Positions 9,446 through 14,000 of a DNA stretch of 64,000 nt are shown here, in pieces. Both the position numbers and the translations under genes were made by a program. The notes below the pieces were generated by a model. That model did no database searches and had not been told where the DNA came from. It saw only the letters and a program-made list of their open reading frames with translations. The first letter of the stretch is position 1, and each line of letters opens with the position of its first letter. The DNA is from an uncultured Clostridia bacterium (lineage in GTDB: Bacteria > Bacillota > Clostridia > TANB77 > CAG-508): positions 2,655 through 66,654 of the forward strand of contig CAKOXV010000003.1 of assembly GCA_934130355.1 (NCBI GenBank). The letters are read 5' to 3'.

Positions 9446-9562
9446 AGTGTGAAACGCGAACCTATATTGTTATTAGTATTTGTTGATGTATTGTTATTGC
9501 GATTGCTGGCCGTATTATTATTATTCATATTATAATTACCACCGCGGTACACTCGGTACGTA
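9446..9562 (-). repeat. DGR template repeat (TR)
   Basis: 117-bp gapless match to 11076-11192. In the target frame it reads TYRVYRGGNYNMNNNNTASNRNNNTSTNTNNNIGSRFT (AAT/AAC-rich). It lies 33 nt downstream of the RT stop. Confidence 0.93.
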
Positions 9563-9595
9563 AGGTTCAAACACTTCCGACTTACCCCAATATCT

Positions 9596-10627
9596 TTAAA
9601 TTATCTTATCTATCACATACTCAGCTGGAAACAACTTTTTTTCTAGATTATACGTATTTGCAATTTTTATATAACCATTATGTCCAGCTAAATATTTTTT
9701 AGCTTCTTTACTTGTTATCTCCCCATTCTTTATCTTATATTGAAGTTTTTTTACCTTCTTTTTTAGTCTTTTTTTTCCATTTGTTCTTATTTTCAATCTA
9801 TATGGATTAATTTTATATCCACAAAAATTAACTCCTTGTTTGTTTTTAAAAATTTGCGTTTTGTCATTCAACTCCAAATCTAATTTTTCTTTTAAAAAAT
9901 TTTCCATTTGTAATAGAACTTCTTTTGCCTCTTTTTTAGTTTTTACTAATGCTACACTATCATCCATATATCTATAATAGTACTTCAAATGTAATTCTTG
10001 TTTTACAAAGTAATCAAATTCATTTAAATATATATTTGCAAAAGTTTGACTAGTATAGTTCCCTATCTCTATTCCCTTTTTTCTAGGTTGTTTATATAAT
10101 ATCTCCTTTATTAACCACATTAATTTTTTATCTTTTATTCTTTTTTCAAGTATATTTATTAATATATCTTTATCAATACTATTAAAAAATTTCGAAACAT
10201 CTGTCTTGATTATATAATATTCTCCCCATATTCGTTCACATTTTTTCATTGCCTTTTGAAGATCTAAACAAGCTTTGTGAGTTCCTTTTCCTTTTATACA
10301 AGCATACGAAGTATCAATAAATGATTTAACAAATGTATCCATCAAAAAGTAGTCTACTATCCATTTATGTACTATTCTATCTATATATCTTGCTTTTTCT
10401 ATTTTTCTTAGCTTCGGCTCTGACACATAAAAAGAAGTATATCCACCATGTATATATGTTCCACTTTTAAGTTGTATATATAACCACTTTATATATTCTT
10501 CTTGTTTTAAATTAAATTTTATGACTTCATCTTTTCTTCTTTTTCCTTTTTCAGAATCTCTATGTGCTTTTAATAAATTTTCGTATGTTAGCATTTCATC
10601 AAATTTGTTTCTAATTGTTTTGGGCAT
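9596..10627 (-). CDS. DGR reverse transcriptase
   Basis: 343 aa. Has an RT palm with YMDD and the DGR-typical IGNYTSQtFANiYL motif. Flanked by avd and the TR. Confidence 0.92.
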   Translation of the reverse strand: MPKTIRNKFDEMLTYENLLKAHRDSEKGKRRKDEVIKFNLKQEEYIKWLYIQLKSGTYIHGGYTSFYVSEPKLRKIEKARYIDRIVHKWIVDYFLMDTFVKSFIDTSYACIKGKGTHKACLDLQKAMKKCERIWGEYYIIKTDVSKFFNSIDKDILINILEKRIKDKKLMWLIKEILYKQPRKKGIEIGNYTSQTFANIYLNEFDYFVKQELHLKYYYRYMDDSVALVKTKKEAKEVLLQMENFLKEKLDLELNDKTQIFKNKQGVNFCGYKINPYRLKIRTNGKKRLKKKVKKLQYKIKNGEITSKEAKKYLAGHNGYIKIANTYNLEKKLFPAEYVIDKII

Positions 10628-10964
10628 AATATTTTATTAATCCTCCTAATATTTTGCCAATTTCATATAACTTATTCATTGCTACCTCAAATTTATGAGA
10701 ATCAATCCATTTATGCTTATTCATAACTCTTAATAAAATTCTTTGCACATCTAATTTTGTATCTATTTTATTCAAATAGAATAATCTCCTCTTGCTTTCT
10801 GCTTTTGGCACATATAAAATATCTTCTAATGTTGCATACATTAATTGTTTAAATTCATTTCCAATACTAAATTTTTCTGTTCTTGGAAGAATCAATATTA
10901 CATTTATCATATATTCCATATAATCTTCAAAAGCAGGAATTAATTGTAATTGATTTTGTGCCAT
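10611..10964 (-). CDS. avd: DGR accessory variability determinant (Avd, four-helix-bundle family)
   Basis: 117 aa, helical and basic. It sits between target and RT and overlaps the RT start by 17 nt, as is typical for avd-rt. Confidence 0.8.
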   Translation of the reverse strand: MAQNQLQLIPAFEDYMEYMINVILILPRTEKFSIGNEFKQLMYATLEDILYVPKAESKRRLFYLNKIDTKLDVQRILLRVMNKHKWIDSHKFEVAMNKLYEIGKILGGLIKYYAQNN

Positions 10965-10990
10965 TTTTTCCCCTTATTCTAATTTATATT

Positions 10991-11010
10991 AGGTGGGTTC
11001 ACACCCACCT
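10991..11010 (-). promoter_or_regulatory. GC-rich stem-loop downstream of VR (candidate DGR homing hairpin and/or terminator)
   Basis: aggtgggt-tcac-acccacct: an 8-bp perfect stem with a 4-nt loop, in an otherwise very AT-rich spacer 53 nt past the target stop codon. Confidence 0.55.
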
Positions 11011-11062
11011 TTTATATATTTTATATTTTTTTAATTTTTTCAGTGTTCACTAATCCAGTGTT

Positions 11063-14000
11063 CTACTTTACATAAAGTGTGAAACGCGAACCTATACTGT
11101 AATTAGTATAGGTAGATGTACTGTAAAAGCGAAAGCTGGCCGTATAATTACTATACATACTATAATAACCACCGCGGTACACTCGGTACGTAGAGGCGTT
11201 CGCCTCTTGAGTCCATTCTAGAACGTTTGAACTAATATCAAACATATTATTTATGTAATCACTTCCATATTTTCCAGTTACAGCTCTAGAGTTTTCATGA
11301 TTTCCTATTACTGTATGAACTTTATTTGCTTCTTCTCCTGTCAGTACCCAGTTAAGCATTGCATCCCATTGACTACCAAAAATCATTGTTGATACTACAT
11401 CTGAATCACCTGAATATGGATTATTACTATTTATTCCACTTTCTTGATAATAATACATATTATACCAATTAGTACTTGCCATTGGTGTTTGTCCCTTCGT
11501 AGAACTTATTATTCCTTTAGATGGTAGCGATGTTTCATATCTCGCTATCCAAAATCCTCCATATTTTTCAACTGATTTTACCATGTCTGTATATTCTTTG
11601 TTCATATATTCTCCAAATTCATTTACAGAATTAAAACCTAATATGTTTTTATAATAATTTTCAGAAGCATCATACAATGTTCCACTATTTATATACTTCC
11701 AGCCTAATTGTGAATTACTTCCAGTAATTAAACTTATTTCTCTGTAACCAGTAGAAGTTCCTACTAAATTTCCTGTAGATCTTACATAAGATCCTGTTTT
11801 ATAGCCCATTGCAAAATTATATAAAATTCCTTCATAATAACTTGAATCTGTTGTTGCATAATCACCTTGTAACCTTGCCATTGGCTTATATGTATTTGTA
11901 CTTGAACTACTACTTGCTAATTCTTTACTTCTAGATGTATCATATATTGCATCTTTTACAGGAACCCATACAAATTCATCACCATTTGTTATAGAATTTC
12001 CTTTATTATCTTTCATTCTTTTTATTACTAAACCATTTTTTATCTCATTATACAAATTGTTAACTGCAAATCCTGCAGGTATTGTTGCTTTGTCTCCATT
12101 TGAATTTGAATATTCTGTTTTGGTTTCGTAAATTTCCGAATAAGTTTCTAATTCACTTACATTAAAACTATATATTGAAGTTCCTAAGTTTACTATAGTT
12201 TCATTTCCATCTTCATCTGTTACTTTTTCAGTTCTTTCTAGAATATTTACACCATCAGTTACTCGTGCATATACAATGTCTCCAACTGATAATCCATCTA
12301 CTTGTACACCAGTTTGAGGATTTACTAAAGTAGTCTTTAACCATGTTCCATTTTCATTGTAATTTGCTCCCTGTTTTCCTATTTGATATTCTATATAATA
12401 ATTTTTAATTTCATTAAATGAGTCTTTAAAGTCTAAATATATCGTTCCATTTCCTTCTGTTCCATATACTGCATCTTCATATATTTCAGATGTATCTATT
12501 TTTGTTATTGTAGTTGTTGCTGTTCCTAAATCTATCTGTGCTGTTTTTCCTGTATGATCATATACTGTAACCTTCATGTCATAAGTTGTACCTTCATTTA
12601 ATACTTCATAAGTAAAAGTATTTCCATAATTCGTATAATCTTTATAATTAATATAATTTCCAGATTCATCTGTTGTACTACTTATACTATATACATATTT
12701 TTTTATACCTGAGCCTACTTTACTAATTTTTTGTTCTTGATTATCTTCTGTTTCATTTGTATTGTCTGGATCATAAGCTGTAACTTTTACTGTTATGCTA
12801 TTTGATGTTGTATATGGTTCAATATAAATTATATTTCCATCTTTATCTATTCCATTTTCTCTTTTTGTTAAACTTGGATTAACATTATCAGTTTCATCAA
12901 TGACGTATAAAGCCATTCTTGTTCCATAATATGCTGATGTTCCTCCAGCATCATATACTATACATGAGATTGAAGAACTATTTGAATTATAGTTTCCACC
13001 TCTCAATATTTTGGCGTAATTCGAATATGCTCCCATAGTAAATTCTGATACATTTCCTGATAAATCAAATATATTATTTATAATATCTGTCGTTGTTTTT
13101 CCTGTATTAGCAATTGCTGTATGATATCCAATTGTTGTATCTGTTAGTAAATTACTATTATCATTTCTATATATCCAATTTAGCATTGCACTATATTGAG
13201 AATTCCACATCATGCTTGATACTACACTTTTGGAATTATAATATGGATTAGTTGAATATCTATTACTATCTTGATAATAATTCATATTATACCAAGAAGC
13301 ATTTCTATATGGTGTTTTATTTTGCTGTGATTGAACCTTTGTACCATTTACACTTGTTTCATATCTAGCTATATAAAACCCTCCATATTTCTCTACCGAA
13401 TTTATCATATTATAATATTCTTCATTCATGTATTTTCCAAACTCTTCTGCTGAATTATACCCTGCTCTTGTTTTATAATAAAATTTAGTTGTATCCCTAT
13501 TGGCAGTTTTTATTATAGTATTCTCTATATCCCAAGTAAGTATAGCTGAACCAGCAGTATTACCTGTTACTAAAGATGGTTCTCTATAATTATATGTTCC
13601 CATTTTATATGACAAATTGTATGAAAACACTCCTGTATTTGATATTGCATAATAAATTCCCTCATAATATTTACTATTTTTTCCTGTTTGGTACATAGCC
13701 ATTGGAGTATAATTCTCTGTAATACTTGTAGAGGAATTTTTTATAGCATTTGGTACTGGTACCCACACAAATTGATTTCCACTACTATCTTGTATTACTA
13801 ATCCATTTTTTATTGTATTTATCGAACTTGATACTCCAACACTAAATCCAGCTGGTATATATGCTATATCCTTGTTCGTATCTTCATATCTACTTGTTGT
13901 TGAATATTCACTTGAAAATTCTTCTGAATAGCCATCTAAATAAAATACAACATAATCCTCTTGTTCATTACCATTACTATCTGCAAGTTTAGCAAGTATT

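What the first reader, a model, noticed from the sequence alone, without database searches (positions are those of the whole stretch)
9446..11192. Complete DGR with strict adenine-specific TR/VR divergence and TR placed downstream of the RT
Segments 9446-9562 and 11076-11192 align gaplessly at a constant offset of 1630. I count 16 mismatches. Every one is a T in the 9446-9562 copy on the + strand, which is an A on the coding minus strand. No other base differs.

In the target frame the invariant copy reads TYRVYRGG N Y N M NNNN TAS N R NNN TST N T NNN IGSRFT, with AAT/AAC codons. The ORF copy reads TYRVYRGGYYSMYSNYTASFRFYSTSTYTNYSIGSRFT.

Between the two copies lie a four-helix Avd-like gene and an RT carrying YMDD and IGNYTSQ. 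The gene order on the minus strand is target-VR, avd, RT, TR. The TR therefore follows the RT rather than sitting between avd and RT as in the Bordetella phage archetype.
Basis: partly seen in the sequence, partly recalled or inferred. Interest (0 to 1): 0.8.

Follow-up and report, generated by a model that had tools for sequence, protein, structure and literature searches.

The report
Active DGR with SSB-like companion gene
This is a working diversity-generating retroelement in the chromosome of an uncultured human-gut Clostridia bacterium that rewrites the tip of a giant surface protein. Its gene order is a known one, but it also carries a structured RNA and a small SSB-like gene that I could not find linked to these elements in the literature.

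Summary
Window 9446-9562 and 11076-11192 align without gaps, with 16 mismatches, all at template adenines (P about 5e-8).

It is a complete chromosomal DGR on the minus strand:
- a 2293-aa target with the VR at its 3' end;
- Avd;
- an RT whose best solved relative is the Bordetella DGR RT;
- the TR.

It is active. Four near-identical metagenome loci carry different VRs. Over 8.7 kb, three of them differ from the window only inside the VR. Every substitution against the TR sits at a TR adenine.

The order avd-RT-TR is not new. It is architecture B2 of Wu et al. and the rule in this RT clade (54 of 58 species loci).

- The TR runs directly into Rfam RT-14 RNA (9302-9447).
- An 11-bp helix, supported by covariation, joins the TR's 5' flank to RT-14. 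It resembles the Bordetella spacer RNA and its stop duplex.
- An 80-110 aa SSB-fold gene (8947-9282) stays next to the DGR core in 75 of 80 species, even where the cassette is rearranged. It is a candidate accessory protein I could not find described.

The core is ordinary. The RNA assignment and the SSB-like gene are the interesting parts.

The parts
11063..17944 (-). Target gene, 2293 aa. It has an N-terminal signal-anchor and Ig/fn3-like repeats. It carries three paralogous ~340-aa modules (aa 817-1144, 1341-1681, 1953-2292; ~40% identical). Only the last module carries the VR.
   Evidence: ORF and internal repeats. The AF2 model of module 3 has pLDDT 74; its best PDB match is Treponema DGR variable protein TvpA (2y3c, prob 1.00, E 3.5e-3), followed by formylglycine-generating enzymes, TaqVP and Mtd. 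Nine of 30 homologues hit Pfam FGE-sulfatase. Homologues elsewhere are mostly single-module proteins of 400-460 aa.
11076..11192 (-). Variable repeat (VR), the last 39 codons but 4 of the target gene.
   Evidence: One search gives the 16 adenine-only differences from the TR. Four alleles occur in near-identical loci: the window, L003, L004, and L001/L002.
11076..11096 (-). IMH-like 3' end of the VR (TATAGGTTCGCGTTTCACACT). It is identical in TR and VR and never mutated, although it contains 4 A. It holds a GC-rich core in a 27% GC genome.
   Evidence: The last changed TR position in any allele is 98 of 117.
10991..11010 (.). GC-rich hairpin (8 bp, 4-nt loop) 65 nt downstream of the VR, in the target-avd spacer. 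It is a candidate homing-enhancing cruciform or a terminator.
   Evidence: It is the only such hairpin in 8900-11300. No hairpin recurs at a fixed position after the VR in relatives, so its role is open.
10611..10964 (-). avd (117 aa), overlapping the RT start by 17 nt.
   Evidence: Pfam bAvd E 3.3e-17. NCBIfam DivGenRetAVD scores 74.2 bits, just under the 80-bit cut-off. phrog_3206 'Avd protein of DGR' E 1.8e-21.
9596..10627 (-). DGR reverse transcriptase (343 aa) with YMDD and IGNYTSQ motifs.
   Evidence: There are 2612 homologues at E <= 1e-30. At least 566 GTDB species genomes carry relatives, all gut Clostridia MAGs among the 80 kept.
9579..9589 (-). 5' strand (UGGGGUAAGUC) of a long-range RNA helix that closes the TR. 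It lies between the RT stop codon and the TR.
   Evidence: It is complementary to RT-14 positions 9382-9372. The motif (A/U)GGG(A/G)(U/C)AAAUC is conserved 0-16 nt upstream of the TR in 57 loci and covaries with its partner. The same helix appears in the MFE fold.
9446..9562 (-). Template repeat (TR): 46 A and 14 AAY codons, lying 33 nt after the RT stop codon.
   Evidence: It is invariant in L001, L002 and L004. L003 has one TR change (A50G), and its VR also has G at that position.
9302..9447 (-). RT-14 RNA (Rfam RF02921), starting at the last 2 nt of the TR. It is the proposed counterpart of the Bordetella 'spacer' RNA, serving as RT-Avd binding scaffold and primer donor. It contains a 9-bp stem with a UACG tetraloop (9428-9407) and the 3' strand of the long-range helix (9382-9372).
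   Evidence: cmscan gives 114.3 bits against a gathering score of 48.1, E 5e-17, full length. It abuts the TR in 15 of 15 relatives by Rfam. An HMM finds it in 77 of 80 relatives. It moves together with the TR where the TR lies upstream of avd.
8947..9282 (-). Small SSB-fold (OB-fold) protein, 111 aa, with a GAGGA ribosome-binding site 19 nt after RT-14. It is a candidate DGR accessory protein.
   Evidence: A family HMM hits 75 of 80 species loci, always next to the DGR core, including in rearranged cassettes. All five further family members examined lie next to RT-14 or an RT gene or its 3' end. The AF2 model has pLDDT 88, and its top 50 PDB matches are almost all SSB, PriB or RPA OB domains, with TM up to 0.82. 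The profile search against PDB returns mostly SSBs. Twenty-two of 43 members hit Pfam SSB.

Best explanation
This is an active, chromosomally encoded diversity-generating retroelement of the avd-RT-TR (B2) type in an uncultured human-gut Clostridia bacterium.

Shown:
- An RT of the DGR family, Avd, a TR/VR pair that differs only at TR adenines, and a VR in an FGE/C-type-lectin-like C-terminal module of a 2293-aa secreted protein.
- Different VR alleles in otherwise near-identical strains.

Inferred by analogy with the Bordetella phage DGR:
1. The locus is transcribed through avd-RT into an RNA made of a short 5' flank, the TR, and the 146-nt RT-14 domain.
2. An 11-bp helix between the 5' flank (9589-9579) and RT-14 (9382-9372) closes the TR into a loop. 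It marks where cDNA synthesis stops.
3. RT-14 stem-loops bind RT-Avd, and a nucleotide of RT-14 primes cDNA synthesis in cis at the TR 3' end.
4. The RT copies the TR faithfully except opposite A.
5. The cDNA replaces the VR, guided by the invariant 21-nt 3' end.

An added proposal rests on synteny and fold only. The small tail-less SSB-like protein encoded right after RT-14 is a dedicated accessory factor. It would bind the single-stranded cDNA or the exposed target strand during the integration step.

This DGR lacks the MutS-domain-I (MSL) gene that most clade members carry.
For: Core identity.

Activity:
- The target protein cluster has four alleles that differ almost only in the VR.
- At DNA level, over 8662 nt the window differs from L004 by one base, which is in the VR at a TR adenine. 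It differs from L001/L002 only inside the VR.
- L003 differs from the window at 37 sites. Eighteen lie in the 117-nt VR and one in the TR.
- In the gapless alleles (window, L003, L004), every VR difference from the TR is at a TR adenine.
- Twenty-four different TR adenines, at positions 15-98, are changed across those three alleles.
- L003's TR polymorphism A50G is mirrored in its VR.

Architecture: the TR follows the RT in 54 of 58 related species loci, and B2 is catalogued.

RNA:
- RT-14 scores 114 bits here. It abuts the TR in all relatives where a TR was found.
- The long-range helix is paired in 98% of cells over 25 distinct sequence combinations. Partner shuffles give 89%, and 0 of 2000 shuffles reach the observed value. 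Seven of 11 pairs show changes on both sides.
- Pairing is 99% in register against 45-65% when slid by 1-3 nt.
- The same helix is in the thermodynamic fold.
- The Bordetella model has a 140-nt Sp after the TR, Sp A56 priming, an Avd-binding stem of 9 bp plus tetraloop, and a stop duplex between the sequences up- and downstream of the TR. It is described in bioRxiv 10.1101/2023.10.23.563531.

SSB-like gene.

Plausibility of a role for ssDNA handling: in a reconstituted DGR, ExoI inhibits homing, and the cDNA is proposed to anneal to lagging-strand ssDNA (PMC12875486).
Against: - No read-level data were available, so variation is shown between strains and samples, not within one population.
- The L001/L002 allele has a +2 nt change in the (AAT)n run that frameshifts the target. 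This could be RT or replication slippage, or an assembly error in a variable region. The same sequence does recur in two independent assemblies.
- IMH and IMH* are identical here, so TR/VR discrimination must lie in the flanks and was not identified.
- The hairpin after the VR has no counterpart at a fixed position in relatives.
- The priming nucleotide in RT-14 is not identified.
- The NCBIfam Avd score is slightly under its cut-off.
- For the SSB-like gene, the window protein is below Pfam's SSB gathering score (21.5 against 26). No binding or genetic data exist, and all evidence is synteny plus fold.
- All loci come from one bacterial order, so part of the synteny signal is shared ancestry.
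- I could not check whether this gene is one of the 'PAG1-4' candidates of Wu et al., because no supplements are held.
Confidence: 0.88

Rival explanations
1. The SSB-like gene is merely a neighbour. It would be a small housekeeping or mobile-element gene that travels with this chromosomal region by descent and has no role in mutagenic homing.
For: All 80 loci come from related gut Clostridia. The window protein is below Pfam's SSB threshold. The one viral contig with RT-14 (L165) has no such gene. No experiment exists.
Against: - The next gene downstream (169 aa) is conserved in only 8 loci, against 75 of 80 for the SSB-like gene.
- The gene stays next to the RT when the TR/RT-14 module sits upstream of avd (L046, L068, L070, L071). 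It sits between avd and RT in L067 and L073, and is inverted in L076.
- All five extra family representatives examined lie beside RT-14 or an RT gene or its 3' end.
- The family is a distinct set of 80-100 aa proteins, not canonical SSB.
Confidence: 0.25
2. RT-14 is not part of the template RNA's working structure. It would be an independent small RNA, a terminator, or the 5' leader of the SSB-like gene.
For: Its long 3' hairpin ends 19 nt before the SSB-like gene's start, and in many loci 14-30 nt before. Weinberg et al. tied only RT-10 to a DGR and thought many RT motifs might be retron RNAs (PMC5737381).
Against: - RT-14 always begins at the TR 3' end and moves with the TR, not with the SSB-like gene, in L046, L068, L070, L071, L245 and L246.
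- Its 'linker' covaries with a motif on the other side of the TR.
- It occupies the position of the Bordetella Sp RNA and has a 9-bp plus tetraloop stem like the described Avd-binding element.
Confidence: 0.07
3. The DGR is a fossil. The VR differences among contigs would be ordinary polymorphism or assembly noise, and no homing occurs now.
For: One allele is frameshifted. Only a handful of strains were available. No within-sample read data were examined.
Against: - All components are intact ORFs with conserved catalytic motifs.
- Between the window and L001, L002 or L004, every difference over 8.7 kb is in the VR.
- In the gapless alleles all VR-TR differences are at TR adenines.
- The alleles use different adenines and different replacement bases.
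Confidence: 0.04

Closest known systems
Bordetella phage BPP-1 DGR (mtd-avd-TR-Sp-brt)
   Same: - The RT is homologous over its full length (8ub7, E 8.7e-46).
- It has Avd.
- Divergence between TR and VR is adenine-only.
- The VR sits at the 3' end of a C-type-lectin-type target.
- The 3' end is invariant and IMH-like.
- A structured ~140-nt RNA lies directly 3' of the TR.
- A helix joins the sequences upstream and downstream of the TR.
   Different: - The TR-RNA module lies after the RT gene, not before it.
- The RNA is RT-14, not RT-10/Sp; only RT-14 scored here, so there is no detectable similarity.
- The element is chromosomal, not phage-borne.
- The target is a 2293-aa three-module secreted protein rather than a 381-aa tail-fibre tip.
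- IMH and IMH* are identical within the repeat.
- An SSB-like gene is attached.
Architectures B2 (avd-RT-TR) and D (MSL-containing) of Wu et al. 2018, and DiGReF group 2
   Same: The gene order avd-RT-TR is exactly B2. Most clade relatives carry a MutS-domain-I gene between the target and avd (Pfam MutS_I E 6e-9 to 4e-8), as in the MSL class.
   Different: The window's DGR has no MSL gene anywhere in its 64 kb. The published classification lists avd, HRDC, MSL and CH1 as accessory genes and does not mention an SSB-like one.
Treponema denticola TvpA and other FGE-type C-type-lectin DGR variable proteins
   Same: TvpA is the best structural match of the VR-bearing module (2y3c, prob 1.00). The VR encodes the C-terminal surface-forming strands, ending in a conserved G-S-R-F/M-x-L-Y motif.
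   Different: The match is weak (TM 0.31-0.39, 15% identity). The window's own module matches no Pfam family at E <= 0.01, including FGE-sulfatase. Three tandem copies of the module sit in one protein, and only the last is diversified.
Rfam RT-10 RNA / Bordetella Sp RNA
   Same: Both sit in the same position, immediately 3' of the TR. The proposed role is the same: primer donor and RT-Avd scaffold.
   Different: They are different Rfam families. The role of RT-14 is inferred here from position and covariation only.
Bacterial SSB and small SSB paralogues (SsbB, PriB)
   Same: It has the OB fold with SSB topology, and weak but specific sequence similarity to SSB.
   Different: It is only 80-110 aa. 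It has no acidic C-terminal tail: the window protein ends ...NGDKVK, and most members stop right after the OB fold. It is encoded in DGR cassettes. ssDNA binding is untested.

Membership tests
Diversity-generating retroelement (DGR) | Reverse transcriptase of the DGR clade, with the [I/L]GxxxSQ motif and YxDD | tested here: met
   IGNYTSQ and YMDD are present. The best PDB hit is bRT, 8ub7, E 8.7e-46, ahead of group II RTs by 29 orders of magnitude. phrog_1423 E 5.6e-104.
Diversity-generating retroelement (DGR) | A TR/VR repeat pair whose differences are confined to TR adenines | tested here: met
   Sixteen of 16 in the window (P 4.9e-8). Fifteen of 15 against the window's TR in L003 (14 of 14 against its own TR, which carries A50G) and 17 of 17 in L004.
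Diversity-generating retroelement (DGR) | VR inside a protein-coding target, at the C-terminus of a C-type-lectin or Ig-type ligand-binding fold | tested here: met
   The VR is the last ~39 codons of the 2293-aa ORF. The fold search points to TvpA, FGE, TaqVP and Mtd, though with modest scores.
Diversity-generating retroelement (DGR) | Accessory protein Avd next to the RT | tested here: met
   Pfam bAvd scores 63.3 bits against a cut-off of 40. The NCBIfam equivalog scores 74.2 against a cut-off of 80, just under.
Diversity-generating retroelement (DGR) | IMH at the VR 3' end, distinct from IMH* at the TR 3' end | tested here: inconclusive
   An invariant GC-rich 21-nt 3' end exists. It is identical in TR and VR, so any discriminating sequence must lie beyond the repeat.
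Diversity-generating retroelement (DGR) | GC-rich inverted repeat just downstream of IMH (not universal; present in 34% of DGRs per Wu et al.) | tested here: inconclusive
   An 8-bp hairpin lies 65 nt downstream. No hairpin recurs at a fixed position in relatives.
Diversity-generating retroelement (DGR) | Actual diversification of the VR in populations | tested here: met
   Four VR alleles occur on near-identical backgrounds from different samples. Within-sample read data were not available.
Diversity-generating retroelement (DGR) | cis-priming of cDNA synthesis from the RNA 3' of the TR | not testable with these tools
   Only the position and structure of RT-14 are shown.
Architecture B2 (Wu et al. 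2018) | Core order avd-RT-TR with no HRDC, MSL or CH1 gene | tested here: met
   Order. No MutS_I-like gene is in the window. The extra SSB-like gene is not part of the published scheme.
Rfam RF02921 (RT-14 RNA) | Covariance-model score above the curated gathering score | tested here: met
   114.3 bits against 48.1, model positions 1-144 of 144.
Bacterial SSB family (Pfam PF00436) | Sequence score above Pfam's gathering score | tested here: not met
   The window protein scores 21.5 bits against 26. Twenty-two of 43 relatives match at E <= 0.01, best 7.9e-7.
Bacterial SSB family (Pfam PF00436) | OB fold with SSB topology | tested here: met
   The AF2 model has pLDDT 88. The top Foldseek hits are SSBs, with prob 1.00 and TM 0.56-0.82.
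Bacterial SSB family (Pfam PF00436) | Acidic C-terminal tail that recruits partner proteins | tested here: not met
   The sequences end right after the OB fold or, in the window, with a basic/mixed helix ending ...NGDKVK.
Bacterial SSB family (Pfam PF00436) | Binding of single-stranded DNA | not testable with these tools

The most novel reading that the evidence does not exclude
A tail-less mini-SSB (80-110 aa) is a previously unrecognised, dedicated accessory protein of a very large clade of chromosomal DGRs in gut Clostridia (relatives in at least 566 GTDB species).

It would coat the adenine-mutagenised cDNA, or the exposed VR strand. That would shield it from host SSB-associated nucleases such as ExoI and promote annealing at the target. 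This would supply a missing factor for the still unexplained cDNA integration step.

In the same clade, Rfam RT-14 together with a short motif 5' of the TR forms the template RNA's priming and stop scaffold. This gives RT-14, an orphan RNA family, a function.
Probability: 0.4. Interest if true: 0.7.

Novelty: new variant of a known kind. Interest (0 to 1): 0.5.

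Why it matters
As written, the finding is one more DGR of a catalogued layout. It is useful as a clean, evidently active example in an uncultured gut lineage, but not surprising.

Three things around it matter more.

(1) How the mutagenised cDNA is integrated into the VR is still called mysterious (PMC12875486). 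An element-encoded SSB-fold protein kept beside the RT in about 75 species gives a concrete candidate. It can be tested in the E. coli reconstitution systems that now exist.

(2) RT-14 has been an orphan RNA family since 2017. Placing it at the TR 3' end, and showing that its 'linker' pairs across the TR, extends the Bordetella RNP model to a distant, abundant clade with an unrelated RNA sequence.

(3) The target is a 2293-aa protein with three lectin-like modules, encoded behind two SipW-type signal peptidases. This points to DGR-driven variation of a secreted or fibre-associated adhesin in a poorly known gut lineage.

Tried and rejected
- Exact search for the 21-nt IMH in GTDB genomes and JGI metagenomes found nothing. 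The species is not in those sets.
- Megablast of the locus against phage records found no match.
- The RT profile against IMG/VR gave a best hit of only 53% identity, with the rest at 39% or less. One viral locus had RT-14 and none had the SSB-like gene. The clade is therefore cellular, and phages could not serve as an independent test of synteny.
- I considered a group II intron or retron RT and rejected it. NCBIfam scores are far below the cut-offs, and Avd plus the TR/VR pair are present.
- I looked for extra VRs of this TR in the window and found none.
- I looked for a conserved hairpin after the VR in relatives and found none at a fixed position.
- The word-indexed protein search with the SSB-like protein found only itself. 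The exhaustive phmmer search was needed.
- The supplement of Wu et al., needed to check 'PAG1-4', is not held.
- I tried to name the priming nucleotide in RT-14 by analogy with Sp A56. The base of the P1 outer stem (CUAAUAC/GUAUUAG), next to the TR end, is the obvious candidate duplex, but nothing here can test it.

Full report
**Observation**

They differ at exactly 16 positions. At each one the 9446-9562 copy has T on the + strand, which is A on the coding minus strand. Identity ends sharply on both sides.

The invariant copy has 46 A in 117 nt, so 16 of 16 differences at A has a hypergeometric probability of 4.9e-8. In the target's reading frame the invariant copy has 14 AAY codons, and 40 of its 46 adenines are at codon positions 1 or 2. 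No other copy of the repeat exists in the window, even when adenine positions are ignored.

**Identity of the parts**

The 343-aa ORF 9596-10627 (minus) is a reverse transcriptase.
- Its best solved relative is the Bordetella phage DGR enzyme bRT (8ub7, E 8.7e-46, aligned end to end). The best group II intron RT scores 3.4e-17.
- It matches the phage RT family phrog_1423 at 5.6e-104.
- It stays far below the NCBIfam cut-offs for group II, retron and Drt enzymes.

The 117-aa ORF 10611-10964 is Avd.
- Pfam bAvd scores 63 bits against a cut-off of 40.
- PHROG 'Avd protein of DGR' gives E 1.8e-21.
- The NCBIfam equivalog scores 74 bits against a cut-off of 80.

The variable copy is the 3' end of a 2293-aa ORF (11063-17944).

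The rest of the window encodes ligA, alaS, groEL, pyrG, clpB, a P-type ATPase and an H+-pyrophosphatase. It has 24-35% GC (mostly about 27%) and no phage match. This is a bacterial chromosome. By PyrG, the nearest GTDB species are uncultured Clostridia MAGs from Hadza and other gut metagenomes (90-92% identity). More distant relatives include 'Clostridium sp. CAG:343' and 'CAG:440'.

**Is it active?**

The exact RT sequence occurs on other metagenome contigs. The 90%-identity cluster of the target protein holds four full-length alleles that differ almost only in the last 40 residues.

At DNA level, over the 8662 nt from the target start to the end of RT-14:
- L004 differs from the window by one base, in the VR, at a TR adenine.
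- L001 and L002 differ only inside the VR.
- L003 differs at 37 sites, of which 18 are in the 117-nt VR and one is in the TR.

In the window, L003 and L004, every VR difference from the TR is at a TR adenine. Twenty-four different adenines between TR positions 15 and 98 are altered in at least one of these three alleles, to T, G or C. The last 19 positions never change.

L003's TR carries A50G, and its VR has G at the same place, as expected if information flows from TR to VR.

The L001/L002 allele also has two extra bases in the (AAT)n run. These frameshift the last 30 codons. This could be slippage during reverse transcription or replication. It recurs in two independent assemblies, and an intact TR could repair it.

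I regard recent mutagenic homing as shown at the level of strains. Within-sample read data were not available.

**The gene order**

TR-after-RT is not new.
- DiGReF (2012) made it 'group 2' (PMC3521204).
- Wu et al. (2018) list 'avd-RT-TR' as architecture B2 (PMC5758913).

The RT belongs to a very large clade. There are 2612 database proteins at E <= 1e-30, and relatives occur in at least 566 GTDB species genomes. All of the best 80 come from gut Clostridia MAGs at 58-70% identity. A simple TR/VR finder located an adenine-specific repeat pair in 58 of those 80 loci, and in 54 of them the TR lies 15-190 nt downstream of the RT.

**What follows the TR**

Rfam's RT-14 RNA (RF02921) matches 9447-9302 on the minus strand at 114 bits. 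The gathering score is 48, E is 5e-17, and all 144 model positions are matched. It starts at the last two bases of the TR.

RT-14 is one of 19 'RT' motifs found near RT genes by Weinberg et al. They tied only RT-10 to a DGR, as the Bordetella TR-brt spacer, and speculated that others might also belong to DGRs (PMC5737381). I found no paper linking RT-14 to DGRs.

- In 15 of 15 relatives tested with Rfam, RT-14 begins at the TR's 3' end.
- An HMM finds it in 77 of 80 loci.
- Where the TR lies upstream of avd (L046, L068, L070, L071, L245, L246), RT-14 goes with it.

The TR and RT-14 are therefore one module.

In the Bordetella system, the 140-nt Sp RNA that follows the TR supplies the priming nucleotide (A56). 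It also binds Avd through a 9-bp stem with a tetraloop, and pairs with sequence upstream of the TR to form the duplex that stops cDNA synthesis (bioRxiv 10.1101/2023.10.23.563531). RT-14 has a 9-bp stem capped by UACG (9428-9407).

The stretch that Rfam draws as an unpaired linker, GAUUUACUCCA (9382-9372), is complementary to UGGGGUAAGUC (9589-9579). That sequence lies between the RT stop codon and the TR.
- The upstream motif, consensus (A/U)GGG(A/G)(U/C)AAAUC, sits 0-16 nt before the TR in 57 loci.
- Over 25 distinct sequence combinations, 98% of positions form standard pairs. Partner shuffles give 89%, and none of 2000 shuffles reaches the observed value.
- Seven of the 11 pairs show changes on both sides, such as U-A to C-G, A-U to U-A, and AA/UU to UC/GA.
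- Sliding the partner by 1-3 nt drops pairing from 99% to 45-65%.
- The minimum-energy fold of the 305-nt RNA forms the same helix.

RT-14 plus this motif is therefore the counterpart of the Bordetella spacer and stop duplex, with an unrelated sequence. Priming from RT-14 is an inference. The base of its outer stem, next to the TR end, is the obvious candidate.

**A conserved gene after RT-14**

Nineteen nucleotides after RT-14, behind a GAGGA ribosome-binding site, starts a 111-aa ORF (8947-9282). It has a weak Pfam SSB match (E 2.5e-4, below the gathering score).

tblastn found homologues 14-300 nt after RT-14 in 55 loci. An HMM of the family found one in 75 of the 80 species loci. Four of the five misses are contigs that end just after the RT. 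The next gene downstream is shared by only 8 loci.

The gene keeps its place by the DGR core through rearrangements:
- It directly follows the RT where the TR/RT-14 module is upstream of avd (L046, L068, L070, L071).
- It lies between avd and RT in L067 and L073.
- It is inverted in L076.

An exhaustive search of 1.84 billion representative proteins found 182 clusters, nearly all 80-100 aa. I looked up five distant members. Every one lies next to RT-14 or to an RT gene or its 3' end.

Fold and sequence evidence:
- A profile of the family hits almost only SSBs in the PDB (11 of 13; best E 0.0067).
- Twenty-two of 43 members hit Pfam SSB.
- The AlphaFold model is confident (pLDDT 88). It has the OB topology plus, in the window's longer version, a C-terminal helix.
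- Its top 50 structural matches are nearly all bacterial SSB, PriB or RPA OB domains (prob 1.00, TM up to 0.82).
- There is no acidic C-terminal tail.

Published accessory genes are avd, HRDC, MSL and CH1, plus four tenuous candidates that I could not inspect. Searches for DGR papers that mention SSB found nothing relevant.

I propose that this mini-SSB is a DGR accessory factor acting on the cDNA or the exposed target strand. Two recent results in a reconstituted DGR make that plausible: ExoI inhibits homing, and the cDNA seems to anneal to lagging-strand ssDNA (PMC12875486). The proposal rests on synteny and fold only. I put it at roughly 0.6 that the gene takes part in DGR function. I put it at 0.4 that this is both true and undescribed.

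**What this DGR lacks**

In most relatives a 135-200 aa ORF lies between the target and avd. Forty-five of 46 such ORFs form one family, and the three I scanned all match Pfam MutS domain I (E 6e-9 to 4e-8). This is the MSL accessory class of Wu et al. The window has only 112 nt between the VR and avd and no homologue anywhere in its 64 kb. This evidently active element therefore does without MSL, as do about ten other loci.

**The target**

The 2293-aa protein starts with a signal-anchor. It contains three paralogous ~340-aa modules (aa 817-1144, 1341-1681, 1953-2292; about 40% identical). Each ends in RGG...YG(S/T)R(M/F)xLY. Only the last module matches the TR.

Homologues of the module are mostly single-module proteins of 400-460 aa. 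The nearest relatives of this DGR (L005, L007, L017, L077) also have targets above 1360 aa.

A model of module 3 (pLDDT 74) matches best the Treponema DGR variable protein TvpA, then formylglycine-generating enzymes, TaqVP and Mtd. Nine of 30 homologues hit Pfam FGE-sulfatase. This is the usual FGE-type C-type-lectin scaffold of DGR targets, though the scores are modest. The TR could in principle encode about 1e21 protein variants.

Upstream on the same strand are two SipW/archaeal-type signal peptidase I genes (TIGR02228, 93 and 98 bits against a cut-off of 52). There are also several small proteins that, like the target, have a hydrophobic segment followed by (S/T)Y(A/S)RY. This suggests SipW-dependent secretion. 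The link to SipW-cognate signal peptides is from memory and was not tested.

GC skew is negative across almost the whole window, and nearly all genes are on the minus strand. The target is thus probably co-oriented with replication, which is the orientation reported to favour homing. This is an inference.

**Open points**

- The invariant 3' end is identical in TR and VR, so what marks the VR as recipient is unknown.
- An 8-bp GC-rich hairpin lies 65 nt after the VR (10991-11010). No hairpin recurs at a fixed position in relatives. On the minus strand no T-run follows it.

**Verdict**

On that basis alone the finding is an ordinary new member of a known kind.

- the RT-14 RNA with its covarying long-range helix;
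- the mini-SSB gene that stays beside the DGR core in nearly every species examined.

The second part remains a hypothesis that needs an experiment.

Noticed in passing
L046 (CAMXJY010000020.1) 2050-4210: Six tandem cassettes lie between a 426-aa target and MSL-avd-RT. Each cassette has the upstream motif, a different ~135-nt TR-like segment, and a full RT-14. The TR-like segments differ from each other at many non-adenine positions. Only the fourth matches the adjacent VR, and no VR for the other five is present in the 11-kb locus. L081 has two RT-14 copies. This may be a multi-template DGR.
   Followed up: partly
L005-L084, between the target and avd (e.g. L005 4243-4665): Most relatives carry a 135-200 aa MutS-domain-I gene (the MSL accessory class) between the target and avd. 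The window's DGR and about ten others lack it.
   Followed up: yes
window 17963-22574, minus strand: The target gene is the last of a same-strand run. The run includes two SipW/archaeal-type signal peptidase I genes (19641-20273, 21966-22574). It also includes small proteins (21291-21899, 19058-19663, 18790-19032, 17963-18517) whose N-termini, like the target's, show a hydrophobic segment followed by (S/T)Y(A/S)RY. This suggests a SipW-processed, possibly TasA-like fibre or adhesin locus.
   Followed up: partly
window 11063-17944 (aa 817-1144 and 1341-1681): Two internal copies of the lectin-like module have VR-equivalent segments (RGGAYFSNVTGKSV...YGSRMALY and RGGNYNSNSSSIS...YGTRMALY) that no longer match any TR. 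They may be fixed binding modules or former VRs.
   Followed up: partly
L001/L002 9434-9552: This VR allele has +2 nt in the (AAT)n run and truncates the target to 2284 aa with a scrambled tail. It is seen in two independent assemblies. In several relatives (L009, L010, L011, L013, L016, L025, L030, L036 ...) the reading frame containing the VR is open only from just upstream of the VR. This may reflect real DGR-made null alleles or mis-assembly of hypervariable regions.
   Followed up: partly
window 9563-9578 and 9446-9466, minus strand: The 16-nt spacer between the upstream helix strand and the TR (GGAAGUGUUUGAACCU) is partly complementary to the TR's own 3' end (AGGUUCGCGUUUCACAC). It pairs with it in the MFE fold. 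In most relatives the TR starts 0-5 nt after the motif instead.
   Followed up: no
window 11193-11206, minus strand: A perfect small palindrome, GAGGCGAACGCCUC, lies immediately 5' of the VR and encodes ...EANAS. It is absent from the TR flank. It may be chance.
   Followed up: no
P0347 (803 aa): One library protein contains eight tandem stretches similar to the mini-SSB domain. Its context was not examined.
   Followed up: no
Homologues of the target module: Three of 30 single-module homologues carry a prokaryotic N-terminal methylation (type IV pilin-like) motif. Some clade targets may therefore be pilin-like proteins with a diversified lectin tip.
   Followed up: no
L006 7348-7475: A glmS ribozyme lies on the minus strand near a related DGR locus. 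It is ordinary and unrelated to the DGR.
   Followed up: no
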